From: an uncultured bacterium | GTDB taxonomy: Bacteria; Actinomycetota; Acidimicrobiia; Acidimicrobiales; VFJN01 | Assembly (NCBI GenBank): GCA_963717085.1 | Contig: CAVQVM010000023.1 | Location: 210,627-274,626, forward strand | Direction: 5' to 3' | DNA length: 64,000 nucleotides | Program-made: the position numbers and the translations under genes | Shown: piece after piece, positions 3,577-64,000 of the stretch | Layout of the letters: every line of letters starts with the position of its first letter | Numbering within the stretch: the first letter of the stretch is position 1 | The notes under the pieces: model-generated | The model's input: the letters and a program-made list of their open reading frames with translations, nothing else | Databases searched by the model: none | What the model was told of the DNA's origin: nothing

Positions 3577-4479
3577 TCAGGTCTCGTCGTAGCCGAACAT
3601 GTTGGCGTTGGGCCGTGCCTGGGCGACCAGGTCCGTGATGGCGTGGCCGAGGACCTCCGGGTCGGCGTCGGGCCTTTCGATCGACGGGCCCCGGTGCCAG
3701 CCCTCGGAAACGGAGATCATGCGACCGCTCACGTCGAACACCCGACCGCTGACACCGGCGGACAGCGGGCTTGCAAGCCAACACACGATCGGCGCGATGT
3801 GGTGGGGGGCCATCTCCTCCTTGCCCTCGTCGGTCAGCTGGCCCATGCCCAGGTCGGCGGTCATCCGTGTCAGGGCCGCCGGGGCGACGGCGTTGACGGT
3901 GACGCCATAGCGGGCCAGCTCCTTGGCGGCGATGATCGTGAACGCCGCGATCCCCGCCTTGGCGGCGCCGTAGTTGGTCTGGCCGACGTTGCCGTAGATG
4001 CCCGACGGTGACGAGGTGTTGACGATGCGGGCGTCGAGGGTGTCGCCGGCCTTGGAGCGCTCGCGCCAGTGGTTGGCGGCGAAGTGCGACGGACCGAATG
4101 TGCCCTTGAGGTGAACCCTGATGACGGCGTCCCACTCGGCCTCGCTCATGTTGACGAGCATGCGGTCGCGCAGGATGCCGGCGTTGTTGACGAGGACGTC
4201 GAGGCGCCCGAACGCCTCGATGGCCGTGCCGACGAGCTTCTCGGCCCCGGCGAAATCGCTGACGTCGTCGTTGTTGGCGACCGCTTGACCACCCTGCGTA
4301 GTGATCTCGTCGACCACGTCGTGGGCTGGGCCGGTGTCGTTGCCGGTGCCGTCCATCGAGCCACCGAGGTCGTTGACGACCACCCTGGCGCCCTGAGCGG
4401 CGAGCAGCAGCGCGTGCTCGCGCCCGATGCCCCGGCCCGCCCCGGTCACGATCGCGACTCGATCGTCACAGATGCCCAT
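3577..4479 (-). CDS. SDR family oxidoreductase (MFE-2-like 3-hydroxyacyl-CoA dehydrogenase type)
   Basis: TGAGRGIG, NNAGILRD and catalytic YGAAK motifs. Confidence 0.92.
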   Translation of the reverse strand: MGICDDRVAIVTGAGRGIGREHALLLAAQGARVVVNDLGGSMDGTGNDTGPAHDVVDEITTQGGQAVANNDDVSDFAGAEKLVGTAIEAFGRLDVLVNNAGILRDRMLVNMSEAEWDAVIRVHLKGTFGPSHFAANHWRERSKAGDTLDARIVNTSSPSGIYGNVGQTNYGAAKAGIAAFTIIAAKELARYGVTVNAVAPAALTRMTADLGMGQLTDEGKEEMAPHHIAPIVCWLASPLSAGVSGRVFDVSGRMISVSEGWHRGPSIERPDADPEVLGHAITDLVAQARPNANMFGYDET

Positions 4480-4554
4480 CGGCCACGTCCCCCTTCGGCT
4501 ATGCCACCTGATCTTTCAACCCGCTGGGAACGTAGCAGCGCGACACTGGATGGC

Positions 4555-4686
4555 GTGACCGACGTGCACCAATGCCCCTACTGCGAGCTGCGGTTCAGGT
4601 CGCGCAATGAGCTCGAGGACCACGTCTCCTGCGACCATCCGCGAGAGCTCGACGACGACTCCGACCCGCGCACCCCCCGACCATGA
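4555..4686 (+). CDS. Small C2H2 zinc-finger protein (43 aa)
   Basis: GTG start gives MTDVHQCPYCELRFRSRNELEDHVSCDHPRELDDDSDPRTPRP, which contains C-x2-C-x3-F-x5-L-x2-H-x4-H. It sits in an otherwise empty intergenic gap. Confidence 0.65.
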   Translation: MTDVHQCPYCELRFRSRNELEDHVSCDHPRELDDDSDPRTPRP

Positions 4687-4718
4687 CGATCCCGTAACAG
4701 ATCCCGTTTTCGCGCGGG

Positions 4719-45375: not shown

Positions 45376-45942
45376 TTGTCCACTCGTGCAACCCCTCGCC
45401 CCGCCGCACCGGCGCTGTTGATGGCCGCCGCCGGCGCCGCCGTGGTAGCCGCGGCCGTGACGTTCCCGCCGTTCCCGCGCCGCTCCAGCACCCAGGGCAC
45501 CCCGGGCGCGGCGACGGTCGTGGAGGTGATCGACGGCGACACGCTGGTGATCGACCTCGCCGGCGGCGACGGGGGCGACGAGCACGTGCGACTCATCGGG
45601 ATCGACACGCCCGAGTCCGTCGCCCCCGACCGTCCCGACGAGTGCTTCGGGGCCGAGGCGTCGCGCCACCTCGCCGACCTGGCGCCACCCGGCACGGCGC
45701 TTCGGCTGGAGCGCGACGTCGAGGCGCGCGACCAGTACGACCGCCTGCTCGCGTACGCCTACCGCGTCCGCGACGGCCTGTTCCTGAACCTCGCCCAGGT
45801 GGCCGGCGGCTTCGCGGAGCCGCTCGCCTACCCGCCCAATGTCGCGCACCGTGCGGATTTCGAGCGGGCCGCCCGCGAGGCCCGCGTCGCCGGCGCGGGC
45901 CTCTGGACGGCATGCGGCAGCGCGGACGTGCCGGTCGGCTGA
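45376..45942 (+). CDS. Thermonuclease (SNase/ParB-like), membrane-anchored
   Basis: VIDGDT, VRLIGIDTPE, DQYDRLLAY and GLWTAC motifs, N-terminal hydrophobic segment. Confidence 0.92.
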   Translation: MSTRATPRPAAPALLMAAAGAAVVAAAVTFPPFPRRSSTQGTPGAATVVEVIDGDTLVIDLAGGDGGDEHVRLIGIDTPESVAPDRPDECFGAEASRHLADLAPPGTALRLERDVEARDQYDRLLAYAYRVRDGLFLNLAQVAGGFAEPLAYPPNVAHRADFERAAREARVAGAGLWTACGSADVPVG

Positions 45943-46068
45943 GAGGCCGAGCGGATGGCCTGCACGTGGGCACCGAACAGCACGGGATTTGCAGCGTGAG
46001 CCCAGGCCTCATAGCCCGGCCTCCAGGCAACGCTGACAACGGTGCGCCGAGATGACGTACCTATCCGC
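45942..46068 (+). repeat. Dispersed ~127-bp intergenic element, copy A (MITE/REP-like or structured ncRNA)
   Basis: About 86% identical by hand alignment (18 differences in 128 columns) to the reverse complement of 57669-57795. Ends are gcggat(a)gg...cctatccgc. Confidence 0.85.
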
Positions 46069-46112
46069 GCATGTTCTGAGGCTCGGCCGGGACCGGCGAT
46101 AGCCTCGGTCCG

Positions 46113-46949
46113 ATGGCCACGCTCGCCGAACGGCTCAGCTACGGCCCCGACGACCGGGTGCTGATCATCAACTGTGACGACCTGGGTTCGTGCCACGCGG
46201 CCAACGTGGGTGTCTACGAGGCGCTGCGCGACGGCGTCGCCACCAGCGCCTCGTTGATGGTGCCGTGCCCGTGGGCGCGGGATGCCGCGGCGCGCTACCG
46301 GGGCGAGGACGTGGGCGTGCACCTCACGCTCAACGCCGAGCACGACCTCTACCGCTGGGGGCCCATCACCCACGCCCCCTCGTTGCTCGACGGCGACGGT
46401 GGCTTCCCCCGCACCCTGCGCGATGTCTGGGATCACGCCGACCTCGACGAGGCCCGGCGGGAGCTGCGGGCCCAGGTCGAACGGGCGATCCTCTGGGGGT
46501 TCGACGTGAGCCACCTGGACAGCCACATGGGCACCCTCCAACTCAGGGCCGAGTTCTTCGACATCTACCTCGACCTGGCCCTCGAGTTCGGCCTGCCCAT
46601 CCGGCTGTCGGGCGCCTCCACCGAGCGCACGATCGGCTTCCCGTTCCGGAAGCTCGCCGAGGAGGAGGGCGCGGTGTTCCCGGACCACTTCGTCTACGTC
46701 CATGGCGGGGTCGGCAGCCGCCGCGACATCGAGCGCACCGTGCACGATCTCCAACCGGGGGTGACCGAGGTCTACGTGCATCCGGCCGTGGATTCTCCCG
46801 AGCTGCGGGCGCTGACCACCGATTGGGCGGCCCGGGTCGACGACCACGACCTGGTGGTCACCGACCGCAGCCTGCGCACCATGCTCGAACGGGCCGGCGC
46901 CAGCCTCATCGGCTACCGCGAGCTGCGCGACCTCCAGCGGACCGGCTAG
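46113..46949 (+). CDS. ChbG/HpnK (YdjC)-family deacetylase
   Basis: INCDDLG, SASLMVP, GVHLTL, SHLDSHMG and EVYVHP motifs. Confidence 0.9.
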   Translation: MATLAERLSYGPDDRVLIINCDDLGSCHAANVGVYEALRDGVATSASLMVPCPWARDAAARYRGEDVGVHLTLNAEHDLYRWGPITHAPSLLDGDGGFPRTLRDVWDHADLDEARRELRAQVERAILWGFDVSHLDSHMGTLQLRAEFFDIYLDLALEFGLPIRLSGASTERTIGFPFRKLAEEEGAVFPDHFVYVHGGVGSRRDIERTVHDLQPGVTEVYVHPAVDSPELRALTTDWAARVDDHDLVVTDRSLRTMLERAGASLIGYRELRDLQRTG

Positions 46950-46962
46950 TCGGAGGGCGTCA

Positions 46963-51285: not shown

Positions 51286-52518
51286 TCAGGCGAGCCCCAG
51301 CAGCGCGATGGCGATGATCAGGGTGAAGGCGCCCACGAAGTCGACCGACGAGCTGACCAGCGGGATGCCGTAGGTGTCGGGGTCGACCCCGGTGCGATAG
51401 GCGGCCACGGTGCCGTAGTAGGCCACGGCCACGACGAACAGCAGAGCCAGCCCCCCGGCAATGAGCGATGCGGCGACCATCTGGCCCAGTCCGGGGCTGG
51501 CCTCGCCCAGCGCCTCGGCGACCCAGTGGGCGCCGAACCCGTTGAACACGTACACCGGCACGGCGAGCAGGAAGACGAGGGAGATGTCACGCCGCGCCTC
51601 GCGGTCGGGCCCGGTCTGGGGGTCGACCAAGCCCAGGAACAGCTTCGACGAGAGCCGACCGGAGAGGATGCCGCCGAGCGCACCCGAGCTCGACAGCTGT
51701 GCCGGGACCAGCACCAGCAGCGCCGGCAAGGCCTCGAAACGGGCGAACGACTTCTCGAGCGTGACCCCGGCCAGCGCGCTGATGGACCCGGCGACCACGA
51801 GGATGGGAACGGATTCCCGGACGATGCGGCGCAGGCCCTCGCTCGAGGACTCCCAACCCACAAGGAGCAGGAGGAGTGACGCCACCACCAGGACGGCACC
51901 TACCGTGGGCGAGACCACCGGGATCCCCAGCAGCAGCGTGGCCAGGAACAGGGCCGGCAGCGTCAAGACGTCGCCCAGGGTCGAGACGAGCGGGGCCGTG
52001 ACGTTGTCGAGATCCCAGCCGTAGCGAACCGCCCCCCCGGTAAGTGCGAGCGCGGCGCCGAGCACGACCACAGACCCCAGCACTCCACCAATGATGGACA
52101 CGGTGGACATCGACAACAGGTCGATCGAGTCGGCGATCCCGAGCCCGACGGCGATGGCTTTCGCCACGACCGCCAGCGCGAGCGAGATCGCCATTGTGAG
52201 CAACATCGATGCCACGACGTTCTGACCCAGGACGGTCTCGCGTCGCAGTGACCACCTGAACGTGCCGGCATGGATCGACGTCGACAGCCGGTTGCCGAAG
52301 GAGCCGAAGATGTTGCCGCGCAGCCCGATCGCCGCTGGGACCAGCACCAACAGGCCCGGGTAGCGCTCGAGGGTCCCGGTGATCGACCCCAGGAACGCCC
52401 CGGCCACGAAGCTGGTGCTCGAGTTCAGCCCGAGCGCGACGAGGCTCTGCCGGGCGCCGGCCGCGTCCGGCCCCAGGAGTGCGCGCAACCGCGCCCTAGG
52501 CGGCAAGAGCCATCGCAT
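51286..52518 (-). CDS. MgtE/SLC41-like divalent cation transporter with two membrane domains and no CBS domains
   Basis: P-x6-GN (PAAIGLRGN) and D-x4-P-x6-D (DNVTAPLVSTLGD) in domain 1. PAQLSSSGA and PDTYGIPLVSSSVD in domain 2. Confidence 0.88.
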   Translation of the reverse strand: MRWLLPPRARLRALLGPDAAGARQSLVALGLNSSTSFVAGAFLGSITGTLERYPGLLVLVPAAIGLRGNIFGSFGNRLSTSIHAGTFRWSLRRETVLGQNVVASMLLTMAISLALAVVAKAIAVGLGIADSIDLLSMSTVSIIGGVLGSVVVLGAALALTGGAVRYGWDLDNVTAPLVSTLGDVLTLPALFLATLLLGIPVVSPTVGAVLVVASLLLLLVGWESSSEGLRRIVRESVPILVVAGSISALAGVTLEKSFARFEALPALLVLVPAQLSSSGALGGILSGRLSSKLFLGLVDPQTGPDREARRDISLVFLLAVPVYVFNGFGAHWVAEALGEASPGLGQMVAASLIAGGLALLFVVAVAYYGTVAAYRTGVDPDTYGIPLVSSSVDFVGAFTLIIAIALLGLA

Positions 52519-53205
52519 CGGTGCTGTGGTTTCACGAGGCAATCGAGGGGGCTACCCATCGGAGCGCCGCCAGTCTGCAACACCCTGAGGCGGCTGCGGT
52601 GTACCAACGAGGGTCGACTGCGGCCAGCAGATGCCTGCTCGCCGAGCGGCGACCATCTTCACCCTCGTGTTCCTGCTCCGCTCCCCCAAGCGGATTCGGC
52701 AAACCTGTAACAGAGGGCGGGCTCGACGCGATCTCCATCTGTACGGCTCAGACCAGTGCTGAGCCGTTCCGAGGAGCCGGGGTACGGGACGTGCCGGGGA
52801 GTGGCGGGCATCCCCGGCTCCCCTCGGATCCGACCGATCCCGGCCTCAGGCGCCCCTCAGTGCCTGGGGCCGGAACGCGCCTACGGGCCGCACGCCATCA
52901 GAACTCCGGCGAGCGTCGTCGCCATCACCACTGATACCCGTAGCCCTCGCATGGTGCCCTACCTACCGCTCTCCCGCCGCCTGCGGTGCGACGCAAGTAC
53001 TGACGCCCGACCTCCCCGATCCGATGACCAAAAGAGAAGACGTTTCTTGAGCGAGTCGCAGACACGCGACGAGATACGGCGGCGGCGTGTCGCTGCACGT
53101 TGCCGGGGCTACGCGCTATCTCTCGACGGGGCCGAGCACGTGCCCAATCGTCGCCATGGCGGCCCTAGCGACCCACCCCCGAAGCCCGATTTGGTGTCTT
53201 ATGGC

Positions 53206-53607
53206 TCAGGTGTTGGGGCCGATGAGATGGCATACCCGCTGGGGGTCGCAGTCGGCTGGGTCAAGGTGCTGGGCTCGGTCTTCGAGCCGGCCGAGCTCGG
53301 CTCGGAGGCGTCGGAGCTCGCTGATGCGACGGTCTAGGTCGGCAGCGCGGGCGGTGATCAGGTCGAGCACGTGGCCGCAGGGTGTTGTGCCGCGGTCGCG
53401 GAGGGCCACGATCCCACGGATCTCGCCGAGGCTGAGTCCCACCGCTTGGGCCGAGCGGATGAAAGCGAGGCGGTTGGTGGCCTCCGGGGTGTACTGGCGG
53501 TAGCCCGATGGCGTGCGGGCGGGCGGGTCGAGGACGCCGATGTCTTCGTAGTAGCGGATCGTCTTCGCTGTTACCCCGCTGACGGCGGCGAGCTCTCCGA
53601 TACGCAT
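53206..53607 (-). CDS. MerR-family heavy-metal-responsive regulator
   Basis: MRIGELA, TIRYYEDIG, GYRQY, FIRSAQAVGLSLGEI. Cys in TTPCGHV plus C-terminal ADCDPQRVC. Confidence 0.93.
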   Translation of the reverse strand: MRIGELAAVSGVTAKTIRYYEDIGVLDPPARTPSGYRQYTPEATNRLAFIRSAQAVGLSLGEIRGIVALRDRGTTPCGHVLDLITARAADLDRRISELRRLRAELGRLEDRAQHLDPADCDPQRVCHLIGPNT

Positions 53608-53612
53608 CACCC

Positions 53613-53644
53613 TTGACCTTCCAGCGTGGAGGAACCTTTAGGGT
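53613..53644 (+). promoter_or_regulatory. MerR-type promoter/operator 1
   Basis: TTGACC - 20-bp spacer - TAGGGT, with dyad ACCTTCC-N8-GGAACCT at 53616-53637. Confidence 0.75.
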
Positions 53645-53651
53645 AGCGAGC

Positions 53652-54572
53652 ATGGACATCGAGGTGCTGACGGTTCCGGACTGCCCCCACCGGGCGGAGG
53701 CGATGGCGCGGTTGAGGGTCGCCCTGTCCGCCACGAGAACCGAGGGCGGGGTGGTGTCCGAGCGTGTCATCGCGACCGAGGCCCAGGCGGCAGCGGCGGG
53801 CATGAACGGTTCGCCCACGATTCTCGTCGACGGGGTCGACCTGTTCGGGGTGGAGCTGGCCGAGCCCTCGCTGTCGTGCCGGCTGTATCCATCGCAAGCG
53901 GGGATCGAGGGGGCACCGACAGTCGACGCTTTGATCGACGCGCTGGCCAACCGCGGCATCAGTCCGGCGAGCATGGTCAACGACGTCACGTGCGGCGACC
54001 TGCCTGCCGGTCCGGAGGTGTCGGCGCTCGGACGCCAACTCCGCGTAGCCGGATTCGTGGCCCTCTGGCGCGGCGAGCGGCTCAGCGTGGCGGATCTGGC
54101 CGAGGACACAGCGACGGTCGAGGCTCTGGTGGACGCCGGCCGGCTCGAGCTCGACGATCAGGGCGTTGTGGTGGGGGTGCATGGTCTCGTGGCTCGCCCC
54201 ACTGCGCACCGCGTCGAACACGCCGGCGGGGTGATTCACACGTGGTGTGCGTTGGACGCCATCGGGATCCCCGCGGCGCTGGCGCTCGACGCGGCAGTGG
54301 TTTCGACATGCCCGGCGTGTGGCGCTGCTCTGCGGGTCACGCTCGATGCCGGGATACCTGCCGACGACGGCGTCATGCGGCTCTGGCTTCCCGGTGGACA
54401 GTGCACCCATCTCGTGGAGGACTTTTGCCGGCACGCCAACCTGTACTGCACCGCCGAGCATGTTGCTTCCAAGGTTGCGCCCGGGACGCCCGGATGGGCG
54501 GTGACCGTTACTGACGCCGCGGGCATCGGCCGCGTCGAGTGGGCCGACGTGTCTGCCGTACTTGCCTCTTGA
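53652..54572 (+). CDS. merB: Thioredoxin-like domain fused to alkylmercury lyase (MerB) domain
   Basis: N-terminal EVLTVPDCPH..GSPTILVDG..SLSCRLY. C-terminal HTWCALD (MerB Cys/Asp catalytic pair), STCPACG, EDFCRH (second catalytic Cys). Confidence 0.8.
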   Translation: MDIEVLTVPDCPHRAEAMARLRVALSATRTEGGVVSERVIATEAQAAAAGMNGSPTILVDGVDLFGVELAEPSLSCRLYPSQAGIEGAPTVDALIDALANRGISPASMVNDVTCGDLPAGPEVSALGRQLRVAGFVALWRGERLSVADLAEDTATVEALVDAGRLELDDQGVVVGVHGLVARPTAHRVEHAGGVIHTWCALDAIGIPAALALDAAVVSTCPACGAALRVTLDAGIPADDGVMRLWLPGGQCTHLVEDFCRHANLYCTAEHVASKVAPGTPGWAVTVTDAAGIGRVEWADVSAVLAS

Positions 54573-54600
54573 CCTTCCTCTGCACTGGAAGGTGCAGGAT
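54569..54600 (+). promoter_or_regulatory. MerR-type promoter/operator 2, overlapping the merB stop codon
   Basis: TTGACC - 20-bp spacer - CAGGAT, with dyad ACCTTCC-N8-GGAAGGT at 54572-54593. Confidence 0.8.
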
Positions 54601-54609
54601 TCGGGGGTC

Positions 54610-55116
54610 ATGCAACCCGCGATCGAGGCCAACAGCGAACGGGAAGCCACACGCCATTCCATCGGACCGGCAGGGACCGCCGCCCGGGTCGCGGTCGGCA
54701 TCACGCTGGTCGCGCTGGCCCTGTTCTGGTGGACGCCCACCTGGCTCGACTTCATGCTCGGGCTCGTCGTCCTGCCCGGCGCCGCCATCGGCTTGTTCGC
54801 CTGGCGGGCCCGGTACCATCCGGCGCATTTGAACGCGACGGGACCGGTGGGCCATCTGGCGAACGCGATGGTGTTCGCGCCCCTGTTCATCGTGCCCGCC
54901 ACCGCTGGCGGCGCCGTGCTCTTCTACGGCTCGTCGATGCTCGTGGCCGCGGCCCGCCGCTCGGGCGGTTGCGAGGTCACCGTGATCGCCAACACTGCAC
55001 TCAGGCGCGACGATCAGATTGGCTGCGTACTCTTCGCGCCGATCGACCTGACCGAACGTGCCATCAACCGCGACGAGCGCGGCGCCCCTCGATCGACGAG
55101 CCAGGACATGGGCTGA
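54610..55116 (+). CDS. Uncharacterised membrane protein with two C-terminal Cys (possibly DUF6410-like)
   Basis: Several hydrophobic segments followed by GGCEVTVIAN..LRRDDQIGCVLFAPID. The family label is unverified. Confidence 0.75.
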   Translation: MQPAIEANSEREATRHSIGPAGTAARVAVGITLVALALFWWTPTWLDFMLGLVVLPGAAIGLFAWRARYHPAHLNATGPVGHLANAMVFAPLFIVPATAGGAVLFYGSSMLVAAARRSGGCEVTVIANTALRRDDQIGCVLFAPIDLTERAINRDERGAPRSTSQDMG

Positions 55117-55143
55117 GGCCCTACGGGCCGAACGGTTTCGAGT

Positions 55144-55461
55144 TCAGCCAAGTCGGTACCACCTCGAGACGTCGGATTCGAAGCGTCGCATCAGGTCAGC
55201 CGCCCACTGAACGTCCGCCTCGGCTCGGTCAAGCGCGTTGTGGGCCAGGACTCGGAACCGCTCGGGCGGTAGCGACGGGTCACCGCATTCGGGGCAGGGC
55301 CGCCAGTCCAGCTCGGCGAGATAGGCGAGGTACCTGGCCCGTGCGTAATCGGCGCCCTGCATGAACACCTCGCGCCCATCTGGCGGCGGATCGTCGTGGG
55401 CCGCAGTGATCGCCCACGATGCCACGGCCTCCGCCACTCGACGGTGCACCGTGTCGTGCAT
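55144..55461 (-). CDS. Hypothetical protein with a CxxC motif
   Basis: WRPCPECGDP. The start may extend to 55497. Confidence 0.45.
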   Translation of the reverse strand: MHDTVHRRVAEAVASWAITAAHDDPPPDGREVFMQGADYARARYLAYLAELDWRPCPECGDPSLPPERFRVLAHNALDRAEADVQWAADLMRRFESDVSRWYRLG

Positions 55462-55617
55462 CACTCTTGGTGGCCCTCTGTCAATAGCCGGCATCACGAG
55501 CAGTTGAGCAGCTTCCGGGTACCAGGGCGCGGACCACCAGCATCCCCATCAGCGGATGGCGGAGATCGGCTCGATCCCCGCCACGGGGTCGACGTCGGGA
55601 TCTGCAACACTCGACCG

Positions 55618-56277
55618 ATGCGGTGGGTATTGGCGACCTGTGTCATGGCCCTCGTGCTCGCCGGGTGTGGCGACGAGGGCCAGGAACTGCGCGCACCGAG
55701 TTCCGACCAGACCACGACGTCTGCCAGTACCTCCACGACCGCAGCCTCGTCCACGACCGAAGTCGCCGCCGGCACCGGCGGCGGGACCGGCGGGGAAGAC
55801 GCCTCCGGCGGCGCGGCATCACCGACGACGGCGACGACGCTGCGGCTGACCAGCCCCGCCTTCGAGAACGGGGCGGCGATCCCTAGCGACTTCACGTGCG
55901 TGGGCGACGACGTGTCCCCACCGCTGGCCTGGACCGGGGTCCCGGCAGGCACCGCGGAGCTGGCGGTGGTGGTCCGTGATCCCGACGCCGACGGCTTCGT
56001 CCACTGGGTCATCGCCGGCTTGTCACCCGATCTCGGCGGTGTGGCGCGCGGCAATCCACCCTCGCAGGCGGTCGAGGAGCTCAACGACTTCGGCCGCCAG
56101 GGATGGTCGGGCCCCTGCCCGCCATCGGGCACGCACAACTACGACTTCCGTATCTACGCCCTGGACGAGCCGAGCGGGCTCGCCGCCGGTGCGGACGGGG
56201 CACGGGCGGCCGAGCAGCTGGAGTCCGCCACCGTCCTGGCGTCGGCTGCGCTCAGCGGGACGGCGGCGGCGCCCTAG
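55618..56277 (+). CDS. YbhB/YbcL (PEBP/Raf kinase inhibitor-like) lipoprotein
   Basis: Lipobox LAGC, Thr-rich linker, LTSPAF, SPPLAW, DPDA..FVHW, GPCPP..HNY. Confidence 0.92.
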   Translation: MRWVLATCVMALVLAGCGDEGQELRAPSSDQTTTSASTSTTAASSTTEVAAGTGGGTGGEDASGGAASPTTATTLRLTSPAFENGAAIPSDFTCVGDDVSPPLAWTGVPAGTAELAVVVRDPDADGFVHWVIAGLSPDLGGVARGNPPSQAVEELNDFGRQGWSGPCPPSGTHNYDFRIYALDEPSGLAAGADGARAAEQLESATVLASAALSGTAAAP

Positions 56278-56299
56278 CCGCCAATTCGGCGGGCCACCG

Positions 56300-56611
56300 T
56301 CAGCGGACGGCGAAGCGCCGCGTCGCCGGCGAGCCCGGTGCCTCGACCGGCAACGCGTCGACGGTCACCGACTCGACGATCGCCAGCCTGGGACCCTCGT
56401 GGGCCCACGCCACCAGCGCTTCGACGGCCGCCCGGCTGCCCTGGGCCTCGATCTCGACACGGCCGTCCCACAGGTTGTGCACCCAGCCGGTGACGCCCAA
56501 CCGCTCGGCCTCGTGCCGGCAGCTCTCGCGGAACCACACGCCCTGCACCCGGCCCGCGACGACCGCCCGCACCCGGACGACGGCGCCGGGGCTCGACGCC
56601 GCGGCGCTCAC
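56300..56611 (-). CDS. acyP: Acylphosphatase
   Basis: GRVQGVWFR, GWVHN..DGRVE and GP..A.V motifs. Confidence 0.92.
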   Translation of the reverse strand: MSAAASSPGAVVRVRAVVAGRVQGVWFRESCRHEAERLGVTGWVHNLWDGRVEIEAQGSRAAVEALVAWAHEGPRLAIVESVTVDALPVEAPGSPATRRFAVR

Positions 56612-57555
56612 TCCTCGGGTGTGGACCCGCGGGACGGATCCCCGCCCCCACCCCGACGGGAGCGCTCGTCGGCCTCCATCTCGGCCTCCAGCTCGGACAG
56701 GGGATCGGCCTCCTCGCCCGCCCTGTCGCCCACCGCCTCGTCGGCCCCGGGCTCCTCGCCCGTGTCGGCGTCGGGGCCGTCGGTCCGTCCGGTGCGCTCG
56801 CCGGTGGCGCCGGCGTCGTCGTCGACGGGTTCGTCCGAGAGTTCCTCGGACTCGGCGTCGATGACGCCACGCCGCCCCCGCGTCGGGGCCACCCTCTCGG
56901 CCACCCGCGCCGGCATGTCGGCCTTGCGAATCTGGTAGCTGGCCACTGCGAGGGCCACGAGCGTCGGGAAGAAGAAGTAACCGCCGAGGAACAACACCAT
57001 GGCGGCGAGCGCCACCAGGGCGAACGTGAGGAGGCGGCTCCGGTCGGGGCGACGGTTGGCCCAGAACGCGAATGCAGCCACCGCCACCGGCAGCGCCAGG
57101 TACAGGATCACGCTCGGTCCGCTGGCCTCGAGCAACCCCTCCTTCTGGTCGGGCATCTGCTCGCCGGTGATGGCCTCACGGGCGGACACTGCCACCCCTT
57201 GGAAGGTCCGCGGCAGCGGCTCGCCCCGGTCGTCCACCGGAACCCGGGTGAAGAAGAGCACCGAGACCGCCGACACGATGGCGAGGCCCAGCGCAACCGT
57301 CACGGCCAGATCCCCGGGGCGGCGGTTGCCCCTGGAGCCCAGCAGGCCGCCGAAGCCGGTCCTGCCGGCGGTCGCGCTCGCGGCCGTCCCTGACTCTGCG
57401 CCCGCAGAACCCCCGCTCGAGGCGCGTGAGGAGGCCGGGGACGTCGCGCTGGTCACCGCGTTGGTCCGACGGGCAGCGAGCGCGTCACGGGATGCCCGGT
57501 TCCGGGAGGCCCGGCGCTGCTTGGAGGTCTGGCGCTTGTCCGGCACAGCCGACAA
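56608..57555 (-). CDS. Hypothetical membrane protein (basic N-terminus, 3-4 TM, acidic C-terminal tail)
   Basis: Clear TM segments and good codon usage. Overlaps the acyP start by 4 nt. Confidence 0.75.
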   Translation of the reverse strand: MSAVPDKRQTSKQRRASRNRASRDALAARRTNAVTSATSPASSRASSGGSAGAESGTAASATAGRTGFGGLLGSRGNRRPGDLAVTVALGLAIVSAVSVLFFTRVPVDDRGEPLPRTFQGVAVSAREAITGEQMPDQKEGLLEASGPSVILYLALPVAVAAFAFWANRRPDRSRLLTFALVALAAMVLFLGGYFFFPTLVALAVASYQIRKADMPARVAERVAPTRGRRGVIDAESEELSDEPVDDDAGATGERTGRTDGPDADTGEEPGADEAVGDRAGEEADPLSELEAEMEADERSRRGGGGDPSRGSTPEE

Positions 57556-57668
57556 CGGTAGGCCGCCGAGGGTGCCGGGGGCGATCCGGCGACCGGTGTG
57601 CCTGCGGGGTGGTCTTTTCGTCGCCGTCCTACCCCGGTCGTCCGGCCGCCGGCCGCCTAAGGACCGGA

Positions 57669-57795
57669 GCGGATAGGGACGTCGTCTTGACTCACCGTGG
57701 TCAGCGCTGCCGGTGGCCTAGCTGTGCGGCCTGGGCTCACGCTGCAAATCCCGGGCTGTTCTGTGCCCACATGCGGGCCTATCCGCTCGGCCTCT
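57669..57795 (-). repeat. Dispersed ~127-bp intergenic element, copy B
   Basis: Reverse-complement match to 45942-46068. Perfect 11-bp inverted repeat gagcggatagg (57667-57677) / cctatccgctc (57778-57788). Confidence 0.85.
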
Positions 57796-57808
57796 AGGCT
57801 GACGCCAG

Positions 57809-58633
57809 GTGGGACGTATCTCGAATGCCTGGAGACTCGCCCAGGCCTCGTGGCGGGTGCTGTCGCATGATCGTGAGCTGATCGCGATCCCGATCATCGC
57901 CGGGGTCGCGGCGCTGGTGGCGTTCGGGATCATCGCCGGGCCGGGGGTGCTGCTGCTCGGTGGCACCGACGAGTCCGACGCCAGCGACTTCGCGCTGTGG
58001 TTGATCCTGGCGGTGGCGGCTATCGCCGCCAGCTGGGTTGCGGCCCTGGGCCAAGCCGCGGTCGTCGCCGGCGCTGGACAGCGGATGGACGGGGGCGACC
58101 CCACCCTGGCCACCGGGTTCGACGCCGCTCGTGCCCGTGCGGGCCGATTGTTCGGATGGGCGTTCCTGGCCACGGTGGTGGCGCTGATCCTCGACCTGAT
58201 CCAGGACCGGCTGGGCTTCGCCGGCCGCATCGTCGGCTCGCTCGGCAACATCGCGTTCAGCGTCATGTCCTTCCTGGCGCTGCCGGTGATCGTGTTCGAG
58301 GACATGGGGCCGATCGACAGCTTCAAGCGGTCGTCACAGCTGCTGCGGACTACCTGGGGGGAACAGATCACGTTCAGCTTCGGGATGGGCCTACTGGGTT
58401 TCATCGCCGCGCTGCCCGGCATCGCAGTCGGGGCGGGAGCGATTGCATCCGGTGTCCTCGTCGTCCAGGTCGTGGGCGTAACCCTCGCCGCGGTATGGGT
58501 GATCGCGGTCGTGGCGGCGGTGTCCGCGCTCTCGGCCGTCTACAAGACCGCGCTCTACCGCTGGGCCACGAAGCGCCCCGTCGACCCGGCGTTCGACACC
58601 GCGGACCTGTCCGGCGCCTTCCGCCGCCGCTGA
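57809..58633 (+). CDS. Conserved membrane protein (DUF6159-like)
   Basis: WRLAQASWRVL, GWAFLATVV, ALPVIVFE..P..FKRS..L..TWGE, YKTALYRWA. The family label is from recollection. Confidence 0.7.
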   Translation: MGRISNAWRLAQASWRVLSHDRELIAIPIIAGVAALVAFGIIAGPGVLLLGGTDESDASDFALWLILAVAAIAASWVAALGQAAVVAGAGQRMDGGDPTLATGFDAARARAGRLFGWAFLATVVALILDLIQDRLGFAGRIVGSLGNIAFSVMSFLALPVIVFEDMGPIDSFKRSSQLLRTTWGEQITFSFGMGLLGFIAALPGIAVGAGAIASGVLVVQVVGVTLAAVWVIAVVAAVSALSAVYKTALYRWATKRPVDPAFDTADLSGAFRRR

Positions 58634-59794: not shown

Positions 59795-60214
59795 ATGGAC
59801 TTCAAGCTGGAGCTGGTGGTGCTGCCGGTGAGCGACGTCGACCGGGCCAAAGCCTTCTATGCCGACAAGGTCGGATTCGCCGTCGACGTCGACCACAGCG
59901 CGGGAGAGTTCCGCGTCGTCCAGCTCACGCCCCCGGGATCCGCATGCTCGGTCACCATCGGGCAGGGCGTGACAGAGGCGACGCCCGGATCGGTCCAGGG
60001 CCTGCACCTGATCGTGTCCGACATCGAAGCGGCCCGTACCGAGCTGGTCGAACGGGGGGTCGACGTCGCCGAGGTCTTCCACTTCGAGGGCGACAAGCGG
60101 GTGCCAGGACCTGATCCCCAGCGCAGCATGTACAACTCGTTCGCCGACTTCCGCGACCCCGACGGCAACACCTGGGTGCTCCAGGAGGCGAGGCGAGACG
60201 AGTCGGGCGCATGA
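59795..60214 (+). CDS. VOC/glyoxalase family protein
   Basis: LPVSDVDRAKAFY, VQLTPPGSACS, FRDPDGNTWVLQE. Confidence 0.92.
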   Translation: MDFKLELVVLPVSDVDRAKAFYADKVGFAVDVDHSAGEFRVVQLTPPGSACSVTIGQGVTEATPGSVQGLHLIVSDIEAARTELVERGVDVAEVFHFEGDKRVPGPDPQRSMYNSFADFRDPDGNTWVLQEARRDESGA

Positions 60215-61200
60215 CGCGGAGCGCGGGCTCCCCCGAGATCGACGTCGCGGCGGCGGTCTCGGGGGACGAGTCCGCCTTTGCGGCGCTGACCCAGCGCCAC
60301 CGACGCGAGCTCCATGTCCACTGCTACCGGATGCTCGCCTCCTTCGACGAGGCGGAGGACGCCGTTCAGGAGACGCTCCTGCGGGCGTGGCGCAGCCGCG
60401 ACAGCTTCGACGGCGGCTCGCAGTTCCGGGCCTGGCTCTACCGGATCGCCACCAACGTGTGCCTCGACATGCTCCGGCGCCGCTCCCGGCGTCCCACGAC
60501 GATGCAATCGTTCGCCGACGTGCCATGGCTGCAGCCCTATCCCGACCGCCTGCTGGACGAGATCGCACCGAGCGACGACGAGCCCCACGCCGTGGTCGTC
60601 GAGCGCGAGACGATCGAGCTCGCGTTCCTGGCCGCGCTGCAGCTCCTGCCGCCGCGCCAGCGCGCCGCCCTGCTCGTCCGCGACCTGCTGGGCTGGCCCG
60701 CCAGCGAGACGGCATCCCTCCTGGAGACGAGCGTGGCGGCCGCCAACAGCGCGCTGCAGCGCGCCCGCTCGACGATGCAGCAGCACCTTCCCGAGCGCCG
60801 CGCCGACTGGTCGGCCCGGGAGCCGACTGCCCAGGAGCGCGAGCTCCTCGACCGGTTCATCGACGCCCACCAGCGCTGCGACGCGGCCGCTGCCGTGGCG
60901 ATCGCATCGCAGGACATCCGGGTCACGATGCCACCGAATCCGTTCCTCTACGCGGGGCTCGGCGATCTCGTGCCGCTGCTCGAACGGGCATTCGGCGAGG
61001 ACCGGGACGGCGACTGGCGCCTGGTGCCGACGCGGGCCAACCGCATGCCAACGGCGGCGAGCTACCTGCGCAGGCCGGGCGACTCCGAGTTCCGAGCGTT
61101 CAAGTTCGACGTCCTGCGCATCGAGGACGGCACCGTCGCCGAGATCACGACCTTCGGGCCGGCGCTGTTCCCCGCCTTCGGCCTGGCACCGACGCTCTGA
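60211..61200 (+). CDS. ECF sigma factor with a C-terminal SnoaL-like extension (SigG/ECF56-like)
   Basis: HCYRML, AEDAVQETLLRAW, WLYRIATNVCLD, LPPRQRA, NSALQRAR, plus ~130-aa C-terminal domain. ATGA overlap with the VOC gene. Confidence 0.9.
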   Translation: MTRSAGSPEIDVAAAVSGDESAFAALTQRHRRELHVHCYRMLASFDEAEDAVQETLLRAWRSRDSFDGGSQFRAWLYRIATNVCLDMLRRRSRRPTTMQSFADVPWLQPYPDRLLDEIAPSDDEPHAVVVERETIELAFLAALQLLPPRQRAALLVRDLLGWPASETASLLETSVAAANSALQRARSTMQQHLPERRADWSAREPTAQERELLDRFIDAHQRCDAAAAVAIASQDIRVTMPPNPFLYAGLGDLVPLLERAFGEDRDGDWRLVPTRANRMPTAASYLRRPGDSEFRAFKFDVLRIEDGTVAEITTFGPALFPAFGLAPTL

Positions 61201-61375
61201 CGACCGGAGCCCCTGCGGCCGGCGGTCCGTCGGGTGCTGGACCCAGCCGTGATGTTTGGATGGCGCCCAAACCTGGCCGATCGTGACTGAGCCCACTTCT
61301 GACCGCGGACCGGGATCGGTATAGTCGCACGGCCGGGCGAAGACACGGGCGCGGCGCCGACGAAGGAGTGGTTCC

Positions 61376-62110
61376 GTGGCACGAACCTCCACCAAGCGGG
61401 CGACATCCGCTGCGCTCGTGCGGCTGGGCACGCACCACGAGGGGCCCAAGCGATCGTCGTTGGCGCAGGAACGCTCGCGCGAGACCAGGCGGAAGCTGGT
61501 CAAGGCTGCCCTCGACCTGTGGAGCGAACGGGGCTTCGAGACCGGGATAGACAGCACGACCGCCGAGGAGATCGCAGCCCGGGCCGGTGTCGCCAAGGGG
61601 ACCTTCTACTTCCACTTCGCGCGCAAGGAACAGGTCCTCCTCGAGATGGGTTGGTTGACCGCGAGGGCGCTGTACGAGGACGCACTCCGCGCCCTGGCCA
61701 ACGGTCGCTCGCTCGACACGGTCCTCGACCAGCTGATGACGAAGCTCGCTCGGCGCATCGAGAAGGGCCCCCGCGCCGCGGTGGGCCGCATGATCCAGGA
61801 GTTCCACCGGGCCCCCGAGTCCGAGGTCCTGTACGACCAGGAACACTTCGGGTTCCAGCGGGCGTTCTCCGTCGTGTTCACCCACGCCCAGGACTCCGGC
61901 GAGCTCCCGGACGACATCTCCCCCAGGGATCTGGCGGCGATGCTCACCGCTCTGGTCATGGACGGGATCCGGGAATGGACCGTGGACGAACGCGTCGACC
62001 TCGGAGGGGTCCTCCGGCAGCGCACCGCGTTGTTGCTGGCCGGGGCGCGCAACCTGGTCGTCGCCCCGCCCCGCCGGCGTCGCCCGACCGCCGCCGCACA
62101 TCGAGCCTGA
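61376..62110 (+). CDS. TetR/AcrR-family transcriptional regulator
   Basis: EEIAARAGVAKGTFYFHFARKE. Confidence 0.93.
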   Translation: MARTSTKRATSAALVRLGTHHEGPKRSSLAQERSRETRRKLVKAALDLWSERGFETGIDSTTAEEIAARAGVAKGTFYFHFARKEQVLLEMGWLTARALYEDALRALANGRSLDTVLDQLMTKLARRIEKGPRAAVGRMIQEFHRAPESEVLYDQEHFGFQRAFSVVFTHAQDSGELPDDISPRDLAAMLTALVMDGIREWTVDERVDLGGVLRQRTALLLAGARNLVVAPPRRRRPTAAAHRA

Positions 62111-62196
62111 GCGCCAAGACCACGGAGCGCGCAATTCTTGGCCAATGACCAATAACGCGCCTGGCCGCGGATCCCCCGTCCTCTTACGATCCCGCC

Positions 62197-63102
62197 ATGC
62201 CGATCCGCGAGTTCTTCCACTTGATCCACGTCGTCGACGACCAAGCGGAGGCCGATGCCTGGTACGACGACGTCTTCAAGCCCGAGCGGTTCATCGAGAG
62301 GAACTGGTCCGACATCGAGCGGCGGTGGGCCTCTCTGGCGATGATCGGCGACTTCATGATCGAGGTGATCGAGCCCGGCTCAGCACCAGAGGACCGGGTG
62401 ATGCCGCTCGGCCGGTTTCGCGCCCGGTTCGGCCAGCACTTCCACTCCCTCGCGTGGTACGTCGACACGGCCGACGTGCGGCCGCTCTTCGACGGACTGC
62501 GCGCCCATGGGGTGAGGATCGCCAAGTCCGGCGGCGGCATGTTCCCGGATGGTGACGTCGACCCCGGACCGACGATCTTCACCCATCCCAAGGACACCTT
62601 CGGTCAGCTCGAGTTCGTCGCCCTCGACGACTTCTGGCGCGAGCGGGACCCACGGTTCGGCCCCGACTGGTCGCCCGCCTTCTGGCGTGACGACCACCCC
62701 CTGACCATCGAACGCGTGGCGTCCTTCACCACCGTCGTGAGCGACGTCGCGAAGGCCCGAGCGCTGTTCGAGGGCCCGATCGGCGGCCGGGTCGTCCACA
62801 CCCGGGCATCGTCCGTCGCGGAAAGCGCCTTCGTCCTCGTCGGCAGCGACTCGATCGTCGAGCTCGCGAAGCCGACCGTGGACGACTCGCGGCTGGCGGC
62901 GGACCTCGCCGTCAACGGTGAGCTCCCGCATCGCTGCACCTTCAAGGTCACCGACCTCGAAGCGGCCGAACGCCACATCGAAGACGTGGGCGTGCGGGTC
63001 GCCGACCGCTCCGGTGACGGGTTCACGCTCGAGCCGGCGGATTGCTTCGGCGCCGTCTACGGCTTCACGAGCCGTGCCGTCCCGGGTGATCCGCGGCGCT
63101 GA
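62197..63102 (+). CDS. VOC-family protein (two-domain)
   Basis: FFHLIHVV, IEVIEP, FHSLAWYV, THPKDTFGQLE. Confidence 0.8.
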   Translation: MPIREFFHLIHVVDDQAEADAWYDDVFKPERFIERNWSDIERRWASLAMIGDFMIEVIEPGSAPEDRVMPLGRFRARFGQHFHSLAWYVDTADVRPLFDGLRAHGVRIAKSGGGMFPDGDVDPGPTIFTHPKDTFGQLEFVALDDFWRERDPRFGPDWSPAFWRDDHPLTIERVASFTTVVSDVAKARALFEGPIGGRVVHTRASSVAESAFVLVGSDSIVELAKPTVDDSRLAADLAVNGELPHRCTFKVTDLEAAERHIEDVGVRVADRSGDGFTLEPADCFGAVYGFTSRAVPGDPRR

Positions 63103-63116
63103 GCAATCGGCGCGGC

Positions 63117-63776
63117 TCAGCGCCGGATCGCGGCCAGGCAGAACTCGACGAGCTGCTCCACGTCCTCGTCGCTGGGCGGTGACCGCCGGAGGAATTGCTC
63201 GAGGCGACCGAAGGCCACCACCGATATGGCGGCGGCATCACGCTCGGGATCGGGACTGCCCGCGCTGCGGAGGGCATCGACGAGCTGGTGGTCCGTAGCC
63301 GGCACGCTCACTGTCTGGCGCACCTCGATGGGCAGCTCCGCGAGGTTGTGCATGGCCGCCCTCGTTTGGCGGGCCACGGCCCGGCGCTGGGCCTGGGCGG
63401 CCACGCCGACGATCCAGGCCCGTACCTTGAGCTCGGAATCGTCAACCTTGTCGAGCTGGTGGCGCAGGTAGCTCTCGAGGCGGTGGGCCCCCGCCTCCAC
63501 GACCGCGGCGATGAGCTCGTCCTTGCTCACGAAGTGCCGGTAGAACGCCTGGTTGGACAGTCCGGCACGCTCGACGATCTCGGCCACGCGTGGCGCCCGC
63601 TCGTCGCCGAGCTCGACCATCAGGTCGAGACCGGCATCGAGGAGGCGCTGGACCTCGTCGATGTATGCGCTCTCGCGGGCGGCCAGGGCGCGGCGCGCGG
63701 TGCGTGCTGCGACGGGGGACGGCTCCGGGACGTCCTGATCGTCCGCGGCTGCCTGCGCCTTCGACGGCCTCGCCAT
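63117..63776 (-). CDS. TetR/AcrR-family transcriptional regulator
   Basis: VAEIVERAGLSNQAFYRHFVSKDEL. Confidence 0.92.
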   Translation of the reverse strand: MARPSKAQAAADDQDVPEPSPVAARTARRALAARESAYIDEVQRLLDAGLDLMVELGDERAPRVAEIVERAGLSNQAFYRHFVSKDELIAAVVEAGAHRLESYLRHQLDKVDDSELKVRAWIVGVAAQAQRRAVARQTRAAMHNLAELPIEVRQTVSVPATDHQLVDALRSAGSPDPERDAAAISVVAFGRLEQFLRRSPPSDEDVEQLVEFCLAAIRR

Positions 63777-63907
63777 CACCTCGCCCTTCAGCCGGCGTGG
63801 CCCGGCTCGGAACTTAGTTCTGTCGACGGAGAACCCTACTCCCCTCACCCGGGACCAGCAGGGCACGATGTGTCACAGTGCAGAGCAGCGCGCGTGGAGA
63901 CATGCCC

Positions 63908-64000
63908 ATGACACCAGATCCGTACTTCGACCTCACCGGCAAGGTCGCCCTGGTCACGGGCGGCAGCCGCGGCCTCGGTCGCCGGATGGTCCTGGCGTTC
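63908..64000 (+). CDS. SDR oxidoreductase, 5' end truncated by the window edge
   Basis: MTPDPYFDLTGKVALVTGGSRGLGRRMVLAF. Confidence 0.9.
   Translation, partial: MTPDPYFDLTGKVALVTGGSRGLGRRMVLAF

What the first reader, a model, noticed from the sequence alone, without database searches (positions are those of the whole stretch)
45942..46068. Unnamed ~127-bp structured element repeated 11.6 kb away in inverted orientation
Seen: copies at 45942-46068 (+) and 57669-57795 (-) are about 86% identical by hand alignment and share a 26-nt perfect core (cgggatttgcagcgtgagcccaggcc). Both are strictly intergenic and their flanking genes are unrelated. The ends pair (copy B has a perfect 11-bp inverted repeat; copy A has a 1-nt gap). 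Internal stems are kept: CAGCGT pairs with ACGCTG in A and GCGCTG in B, and a GGCC-N9-GGCC hairpin has three of the differences in its loop. I cannot match it to a riboswitch or tRNA. Inference: a non-autonomous mobile element (MITE/REPIN-like) or a multicopy structured RNA, likely with many more copies genome-wide.
Basis: partly seen in the sequence, partly recalled or inferred. Interest (0 to 1): 0.62.

Follow-up and report, generated by a model that had tools for sequence, protein, structure and literature searches.

The report
Small hitch-hiking transposon in soil Acidimicrobiales
The two repeats are copies of a 134-base non-coding "jumping" element (a MITE) that borrows the transposase of an IS5-family insertion sequence found in uncultured Acidimicrobiales; it is an ordinary kind of element, though this family seems undescribed and it lands strikingly often exactly on gene stop codons.

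Summary
The two copies are 85% identical with a 26-nt perfect core. The true unit is 134 nt: 45943-46076 (+) and 57661-57794 (-).

It is a MITE, not a structured RNA.
- Its roughly 19-nt ends (GAGGCCGAGCGGATAGG... / ...CCTATCCGC+8 nt) match both ends of ~975-bp IS5-family insertion sequences (NCBIfam NF033580). These were recovered separately by protein homology, some from Acidimicrobiales MAGs.
- Copies are flanked by 3-bp TNA duplications. Copy A has TGA/TGA, and the left TGA is the stop codon of the nuclease gene.
- A cave-metagenome contig from a relative lacks exactly 137 nt (element plus one TGA). This is an empty site.
- I recovered 76 distinct full-length copies at 67 independent sites, plus tandem copies and sister families with the same ends but different interiors.
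- Rfam gives no hit. RNAalifold finds no consensus fold.

Extra finding: 45 of 67 sites sit exactly on a gene's stop codon, with an orientation bias of 31 to 10.

Verdict: a new member of a known kind, of low to moderate interest.

The parts
45943..46076 (+). MITE copy A, 134 nt (GAGGCC...CATGTTC). It belongs to the subfamily whose right end is of the GCGCGG type, like the tnp-upstream end of the IS.
   Evidence: nhmmer hit E=1.2e-42. Boundaries come from the 76-copy alignment and from the empty-site contig that skips 45939-46075 with 5 nt ambiguous.
45940..45942 (+). Left target-site duplication TGA of copy A. It is also the stop codon of the SNase-family gene 45376-45942.
   Evidence: Read directly from the sequence. 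SNase Pfam hit. Stop-codon analysis.
46077..46079 (+). Right target-site duplication TGA of copy A.
   Evidence: The empty allele keeps a single CTGAG.
45943..45960 (+). Left terminal inverted repeat of copy A (GAGGCCGAGCGGAT-GGCC; one A is missing relative to the family consensus).
   Evidence: It matches the tnp-downstream end of the IS5-family ISs L060, L135, L137, L140 and L141.
46058..46076 (+). Right terminal inverted repeat of copy A (TACCTATCCGCGCATGTTC).
   Evidence: CCTATCCGCGC is the reverse complement of GCGCGGATAGG at the tnp-upstream end of the ISs.
57661..57794 (-). MITE copy B, 134 nt. It belongs to the subfamily in which both ends are of the GAGCGG type.
   Evidence: nhmmer hit E=1.8e-44. 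Alignment.
57795..57797 (-). Left flank of copy B (CTA on the minus strand). It matches the right flank in 2 of 3 bases.
57658..57660 (-). Right flank of copy B (TTA on the minus strand).
57776..57794 (-). Left terminal inverted repeat of copy B (GAGGCCGAGCGGATAGGCC). It is identical to the IS end.
57661..57679 (-). Right terminal inverted repeat of copy B (CCCTATCCGCTCCGGTCC region).

Best explanation
[quoted passage not shown] The element carries no gene. Its ~19-nt terminal inverted repeats are the same as those of a ~975-bp IS5-family insertion sequence found in Acidimicrobiales. That IS has a single 280-aa DDE transposase and resembles the IS1031/IS427 groups.

Inferred mechanism: the IS-encoded transposase, supplied in trans from elsewhere in the genome, binds the MITE ends. 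It moves the element into a TNA site, preferably CTNAG, and duplicates the TNA.

The genome is 71% G+C. In such a genome the TNA sites that can be hit without harm are largely stop codons. The duplication regenerates the stop, so most surviving copies sit exactly on a gene's stop codon, as copy A does.

A and B are two independent insertions. Their inverted arrangement 11.6 kb apart is incidental.
For: SHOWN:
1. Multicopy and dispersed. A 20-mer from the core hits 13 true copies in Acidimicrobiales or uncultured MAGs. The left-end 18-mer hits 120 or more metagenome loci. nhmmer finds 76 distinct full-length copies at 67 independent sites.
2. Same ends as an autonomous IS. L060 carries AGAGGCCGAGCGGATAGGCGCC ... 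GGCGCCTATCCGCGCGGCCTCT around a 280-aa ORF. That ORF scores 154.7 bits on NF033580, IS5 family transposase (cutoff 110), and hits DDE_Tnp_1 plus DUF4096. Its homologues were found by protein search, not by the DNA pattern. Several are named 'IS5 family transposase [Acidimicrobiales bacterium]'. Every complete IS end held in the looked-up loci reads CTTA|GAGGCCGCGCGGATAGG ... CCTATCCGCTC(N6)|TTAG. Only the ~19-nt ends are shared with the MITE.
3. Target duplications. 31 of 76 copies have identical 3-bp flanks (shuffle mean 9.9, maximum 20). 53 of 76 left flanks are TNA. Three of the five ISs have TTA/TTA.
4. Empty site. A contig in run X1 joins 45938 to 46076. It skips 137 nt, with CTGAG fitting both sides. 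Contigs from other runs, for example in X4, X6 and X7, carry the occupied allele.
5. Contig depth over the element is 20-90 times that of the flanks.
6. Head-to-tail tandem copies share one TNA.
7. No RNA signal.

BACKGROUND: IS1031-group ISs prefer TNA and make 3-bp repeats (PMC12016507). The actinobacterial IS1237/ISLxx6 is a single-ORF IS5 element with a 3-nt target (PMC2516522).
Against: - No copy of the partner IS lies in the 64-kb window or in the held loci of the MITE-bearing MAGs. Co-residence in the window's own genome is therefore inferred, not shown.
- Trans-mobilisation has not been demonstrated.
- Copy B's flanks (CTA/TTA) and two of the five IS flanks (TTA/TAA) are imperfect duplications.
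- The interior is well conserved (83% mean column identity) and is unrelated to the IS interior.
- The orientation bias relative to upstream genes (31 vs 10) is not explained by simple neutral transposition.
Confidence: 0.92

Rival explanations
1. The element is a MITE that has also been co-opted as a 3'-UTR RNA element, for example a U-tract-less terminator or an mRNA-stabilising hairpin. Under this reading the conserved interior and the sense orientation downstream of genes are kept by selection.
For: The left end abuts an upstream gene's stop codon at 31 independent sites, against 10 for the right end (p=0.0015). The interior is as conserved as the ends. Metatranscriptome contigs cover the element and its junctions (X5 45901-45995; X8 45627-45995 and 45979-46261).
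Against: There is no covariation in any tested stem. Single-sequence folds are no better than shuffles (z between -0.2 and -1.1). No terminator-like site is found. The RNA contig 45979-46261 runs through the right end of the element into YdjC, which argues against termination there. Copy B lies upstream of both its neighbours. The bias could instead reflect an asymmetric target preference, since the three clean IS duplications read TAA in the MITE's orientation. The RNA runs are unstranded contigs and may contain DNA.
Confidence: 0.06
2. The element is a stand-alone multicopy structured non-coding RNA gene or cis-regulatory RNA, not a mobile element.
For: The consensus can form a 12-bp closing stem and two internal hairpins, with 85% of cells paired. 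It is present in RNA runs.
Against: Rfam has no match, even at E up to 10. The RNAalifold consensus is -2.47 kcal/mol with 0 compensatory pairs. The covariation score is 0.059 against a shuffled 0.066, and 494 of 500 shuffles score at least as high. Target duplications, the empty site, tandem insertions and identity of the ends with an IS are not expected of an RNA gene. Neighbouring genes are unrelated.
Confidence: 0.01
3. The element is a REPIN/REP-type repeat mobilised by a RAYT (Y1) transposase, or an in-situ remnant (solo ends) of a decayed IS.
For: It is short, palindromic and intergenic.
Against: REPINs make no target duplication and have REP hairpin doublets. Here the ends equal those of a DDE-type IS5 element and TNA is duplicated. 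An in-situ remnant cannot explain 67 sites with the same IS-unrelated interior or a precise empty site.
Confidence: 0.01

Closest known systems
Prokaryotic MITEs derived from DDE insertion sequences (e.g. Correia elements of Neisseria; Chunjie of Geobacter uraniireducens; MITEAba12)
   Same: The element is small (134 nt) and non-coding. It has terminal inverted repeats shared with an autonomous IS, short target-site duplications, many dispersed intergenic copies and size/sequence subfamilies. Like Chunjie, one copy (A) lies between two closely spaced co-oriented genes (PMC10969869, PMC6382973).
   Different: The host lineage is different (uncultured Acidimicrobiales; the 2024 MITE review PMC10969869 does not contain the string 'actino'). 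The ends and interior are different. The target is TNA. Two thirds of sites lie exactly on stop codons.
IS5 family, IS1031/IS427-like group (e.g. ISLrh, IS1237/ISLxx6 of Leifsonia)
   Same: The partner IS is ~975 bp with a single DDE_Tnp_1/DUF4096 transposase (NF033580). Its ends begin GAG and it makes a 3-bp TNA duplication (PMC12016507; PMC2516522).
   Different: The window element itself has no transposase. The subgroup could not be assigned because ISfinder was not available. The terminal sequence GAGGCCG(A/C)GCGGATAGG was not compared with named ISs.
Tourist-like MITEs / PIF-Harbinger transposons of eukaryotes
   Same: The transposase superfamily is related to IS5, and the 3-bp TNA/TWA target duplication is similar. 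This comparison rests on my own knowledge and was not tested here.
   Different: Those elements are eukaryotic and have unrelated sequence. This is only an analogy.

Membership tests
MITE (miniature inverted-repeat transposable element) | Short (under ~300 bp) and without coding capacity for a transposase | tested here: met
   The element is 134 nt. Lengths across copies are 131-136 nt, apart from one internally deleted copy of 103 nt, L090.
MITE (miniature inverted-repeat transposable element) | Terminal inverted repeats | tested here: met
   GAGGCCGAGCGGATAGGC at the left pairs with GCCTATCCGC(TC/GC)+6 nt at the right. The 12-bp terminal helix is paired in 85.5% of cells.
MITE (miniature inverted-repeat transposable element) | Target-site duplication flanking the copies | tested here: met
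   31 of 76 copies have identical 3-bp flanks, against 9.9 expected. Copy A has TGA/TGA.
MITE (miniature inverted-repeat transposable element) | Multiple dispersed copies, with presence/absence polymorphism | tested here: met
   76 copies at 67 sites. An empty site for copy A exists in run X1.
MITE (miniature inverted-repeat transposable element) | An autonomous element with the same ends | tested here: met
   The ISs in L060, L135, L137, L140 and L141 have the same ends.
MITE (miniature inverted-repeat transposable element) | Mobilisation in trans by that element's transposase | not testable with these tools
   This needs a transposition assay. Co-residence of IS and MITE in one genome was also not shown.
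IS5 family (partner IS), IS1031/IS427-like | DDE transposase of the IS5 family | tested here: met
   NF033580 scores 154.7 bits against a cutoff of 110. PF01609 and PF13340 also hit.
IS5 family (partner IS), IS1031/IS427-like | 3-bp TNA target duplication and a length of about 850-1050 bp | tested here: met
   L135, L137 and L140 have TTA/TTA and are ~975 bp. L060 and L141 have TTA/TAA. The criterion comes from PMC12016507.
IS5 family (partner IS), IS1031/IS427-like | Assignment to a named ISfinder subgroup or IS | not testable with these tools
   No ISfinder library was available.
Any Rfam RNA family | Covariance-model score at or above the gathering threshold | tested here: not met
   There were 0 hits in the window at gathering thresholds. 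Nothing overlapped the element even at E up to 10.
REPIN / REP element | REP hairpin doublet, no target duplication, associated RAYT gene | tested here: not met
   Target duplications are present and the ends are those of a DDE-type IS. I did not search for RAYT genes.

The most novel reading that the evidence does not exclude
The element may be more than a selfish passenger. The 3:1 excess of copies whose left end follows an upstream gene's stop codon, together with an interior as conserved as the transposase-binding ends, could mean one of two things. Either the sense-strand transcript has been recruited as a 3'-UTR module in Acidimicrobiales. Or the IS5-type transpososome reads an asymmetric target and so effectively homes to stop codons in a fixed orientation.
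Probability: 0.1. Interest if true: 0.5.

Novelty: new member of a known kind. Interest (0 to 1): 0.28.

Why it matters
- For annotation, it explains a recurrent ~140-nt repeat that breaks assemblies of soil, rhizosphere and cave Acidimicrobiales. Contigs end inside it in every run examined.
- It should be masked before any search for non-coding RNAs in these genomes.
- It gives a presence/absence marker for strain tracking in these uncultured bacteria.
- The stop-codon landing pattern is a clean natural example of target specificity (TNA) plus purifying selection shaping where a transposon survives in a high-G+C genome.
- It does not open a new mechanism.

Tried and rejected
- **Rfam.** The whole window at gathering thresholds and the locus at E up to 10 gave nothing.
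- **tRNA or tRNA-derived origin.** The left end resembles a class-II tRNA D-arm (GGCCGAGCGG), but ARAGORN finds no tRNA in the window, so I dropped the idea.
- **blastn of the element against plasmid and phage collections.** No match.
- **Single-sequence folding of both strands of both copies.** No fold was better than shuffles.
- **Promoter and terminator scans at both copies.** None found.
- **Composite transposon formed by A and B.** Rejected. The outer flanks differ (TGA vs TAG) and A alone has its own duplication and empty site.
- **MITE as an internal-deletion derivative of the IS.** Rejected. Only the ~19-nt ends are shared.
- **Empty site for copy B.** Not found in runs X1-X4.
- **More empty-site contigs for A.** None in runs X3, X4, X6 or X7.
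- **L132 as an orthologous SNase-plus-MITE locus.** Rejected. tblastn shows no SNase there.
- **Low-G+C loci sharing the 18-mer.** The match lies inside an IS91-like transposase ORF, so it is a chance match multiplied by copy number.
- **Stranded RNA reads.** Only unstranded contigs are available.
- **Mahillon & Chandler review.** Not held in the library.

Full report
**1. The observation**

The two stretches exist as described. A MAFFT alignment of the two regions gives 85% mean column identity. The 26-mer CGGGATTTGCAGCGTGAGCCCAGGCC occurs exactly twice in the window (45983-46008 +, 57728-57753 -), with none expected in shuffles even when 3 mismatches are allowed.

The window is 71% G+C. Copy A lies between an SNase-family gene (45376-45942, +) and a YdjC-family gene (46113-46949, +). 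Copy B lies between a GT87-like gene (56608-57555, -) and a DUF6159 gene (57809-58633, +).

**2. More copies and the true boundaries**

Rfam has no match, either across the window at gathering thresholds or at the locus at E up to 10. The plasmid and phage collections have none either.

A scan of one genome per species with a 20-mer of the core found 14 loci. Thirteen are true copies. All are in Acidimicrobiales MAGs or unnamed soil MAGs, and eight are in a single MAG.

Aligning them shows that similarity starts at GAGGCCGAGCGG and ends 8 nt after CCTATCCGC. The unit is therefore 134 nt: A = 45943-46076 and B = 57661-57794. The 3' end comes in two types, ...CCGCGCAYGTTC (as in A) and ...CCGCTCNGGTCC (as in B).

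A profile built from these copies finds only A and B in the window. It finds further diverged and tandem copies in the loci.

In total I recovered 76 distinct full-length copies.

**3. It is a transposon end**

Many 18-mer hits were not followed by this element's interior. Some are chance hits in coding sequence. Others are different ~140-nt families with the same two ends and unrelated interiors.

One hit, in L060, is the end of a ~975-bp unit: AGAGGCCGAGCGGATAGGCGCC ... GGCGCCTATCCGCGCGGCCTCT. It encloses a 280-aa ORF. That ORF is an IS5-family transposase. It scores 154.7 bits on NF033580 against a cutoff of 110, and it hits DDE_Tnp_1 plus DUF4096.

A protein search returned thousands of homologues. 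The four of the closest 120 that NCBI names are all called 'IS5 family transposase [Acidimicrobiales bacterium]'.

I looked up four of them on their contigs. This route is independent of the DNA pattern. Every complete IS end held in these loci (L135-L141) reads the same way. Upstream of the gene it is CTTA|GAGGCCGCGCGGATAGG. Downstream it is CCTATCCGCTC(N6)|TTAG or |TAAG.

The MITE's left end is the downstream-type end (GAGCGG). The right end of subfamily A is the upstream-type end (GCGCGG). Subfamily B has the downstream type at both ends. Only the ~19-nt ends are shared, and the interior is unrelated to the IS. No such transposase lies in the window or in the MITE loci I hold.

**4. Target duplication and empty site**

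Left flanks are TNA in 53 of 76 copies. The left and right 3-bp flanks are identical in 31 of 76 copies, against a mean of 9.9 and a maximum of 20 when partners are shuffled.

Copy A has TGA/TGA. Copy B has CTA/TTA. Three of the five ISs have TTA/TTA.

This fits the IS1031 group of the IS5 family, which prefers TNA and makes a 3-bp repeat (PMC12016507). It also fits the actinobacterial IS1237/ISLxx6 type, which has a single ORF and a 3-nt target (PMC2516522).

I then laid the contigs of public runs on copy A. One contig of a cave metagenome (run X1) matches 45723-45938 at 94% and continues directly at 46076-46195. It skips 137 nt, with 5 nt (CTGAG) fitting both sides. That is the element plus one TGA: a precise empty site in a relative.

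Contigs spanning the left or the right junction of copy A show the occupied allele in other runs, for example X4, X6 and X7. No empty site was found for B.

Contig depth over the element is 20-90 times that of the flanks in all runs. Contigs break inside it, as expected for a high-copy repeat.

Head-to-tail tandem copies share a single TNA. This is expected if each insertion recreates a CTNAG site at both its ends.

L040 is 99.2% identical to the last 3.8 kb of the window. It carries a third copy about 0.7 kb beyond the window's end.

**5. Is it also a structured RNA?**

Single-sequence folds of either strand are no more stable than shuffles.

On 65 copies, RNAalifold finds essentially no consensus structure: -2.47 kcal/mol, 6 pairs and no compensatory change.

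- 85.1% of cells pair. That equals the shuffle mean of 85.3%.
- The covariation score is 0.059 against a shuffled 0.066, and 494 of 500 shuffles are at least as high.

The stems are a property of the consensus sequence. They are not maintained by compensatory change. No promoter-like or terminator-like site is found at either copy.

**6. Where it lands**

I collapsed orthologous and tandem copies, which leaves 67 independent sites. At 45 of these sites an element end lies exactly on the stop codon of a long, high-GC3 ORF reading into it. Either the duplicated TAA/TGA is the stop, or TA plus the element's first G makes TAG.

In the window, only 24% of CTNAG sites and 7% of TNA sites coincide with such stops. 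The excess is what one expects from TNA targeting plus loss of intragenic insertions. The duplication keeps the stop codon intact, as at copy A.

One feature is unexplained. The left end abuts the stop at 31 sites and the right end at only 10 (p=0.0015).

Metatranscriptome contigs cover the junctions of copy A, including one that runs from the element into YdjC. However, they are unstranded and may include DNA. Only such contigs are available.

**7. Verdict**

This is a MITE of an IS5-family (IS1031/IS427-like) insertion sequence of Acidimicrobiales.

A and B are independent insertions. Their outer flanks differ, and A has its own duplication and empty site. The inverted arrangement is therefore incidental.

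I found no description of this family. No paper in the library holds both 'miniature inverted-repeat transposable' and 'Acidimicrobi'. The 2024 review of prokaryotic MITEs does not contain the string 'actino'.

It is a new member of a well-known kind.

Noticed in passing
67 independent MITE sites in L001-L134 and the window (e.g. window 45940-45942): At 45 of 67 sites an element end lies exactly on a gene's stop codon. The left end does so three times as often as the right (31 vs 10, p=0.0015). Target availability in the window is 24% of CTNAG sites and 7% of TNA sites. The orientation bias is unexplained.
   Followed up: partly
L001:4051-4332, L010:4360-4569, L020:3494-3777, L035:646-932, L065:8329-8505, L021:3511-3734: Head-to-tail tandem copies share a single TNA at the junction, as if insertions recreate their own target (CTNAG) at each end.
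   Followed up: partly
L025, L032, L036, L043, L061, L096, L102, L129; L026, L104, L105, L125; L021:3511-3734: At least two or three other ~140-nt element families have the same two termini but unrelated or only distantly related interiors. One of them sits, in tandem, after the YdjC homologue in L021, where the window (46950-46962) has none.
   Followed up: partly
L040:4531-4680 (about 0.7 kb beyond window position 64000): L040 is 99.2% identical to window 60156-64000 and carries a third copy of the element. That makes three copies in ~65 kb of this genome.
   Followed up: partly
window 57795-57809: Copy B ends only 14 nt upstream of the GTG start of the DUF6159 gene (57809). That gene's promoter and 5' leader must therefore lie in or beyond the element.
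   Followed up: no
L108:4438-5704 and L020:3494-5899: Pairs of inverted MITE copies bracket one or two genes (in L108, a ~340-aa ORF that I did not identify). These are composite-transposon-like arrangements similar to A...B in the window. For the window pair I excluded a composite origin.
   Followed up: partly
window 52500-57700: This is a block of genes with lower third-position G+C than the rest of the window. It includes a MerB-like alkylmercury lyase domain protein (53613-54572) and a PEBP-family protein (55396-56277). It may have been acquired horizontally. It ends at copy B.
   Followed up: no
L140:2884-3875: The IS5-family IS appears to sit at the start of, or inside, another transposase gene (DDE_Tnp_1_4, called at 3788-5092). 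This would be a nested insertion.
   Followed up: no
L015, L022, L037, L049, L063, L067, L083, L103, L112, L116, L119, L121-L123, L127, L131: Low-G+C contigs share the 18-mer AGAGGCCGAGCGGATAGG inside the N-terminal coding part of an IS91-like (Y2) transposase gene. This is a chance match multiplied by the copy number of that unrelated element.
   Followed up: partly
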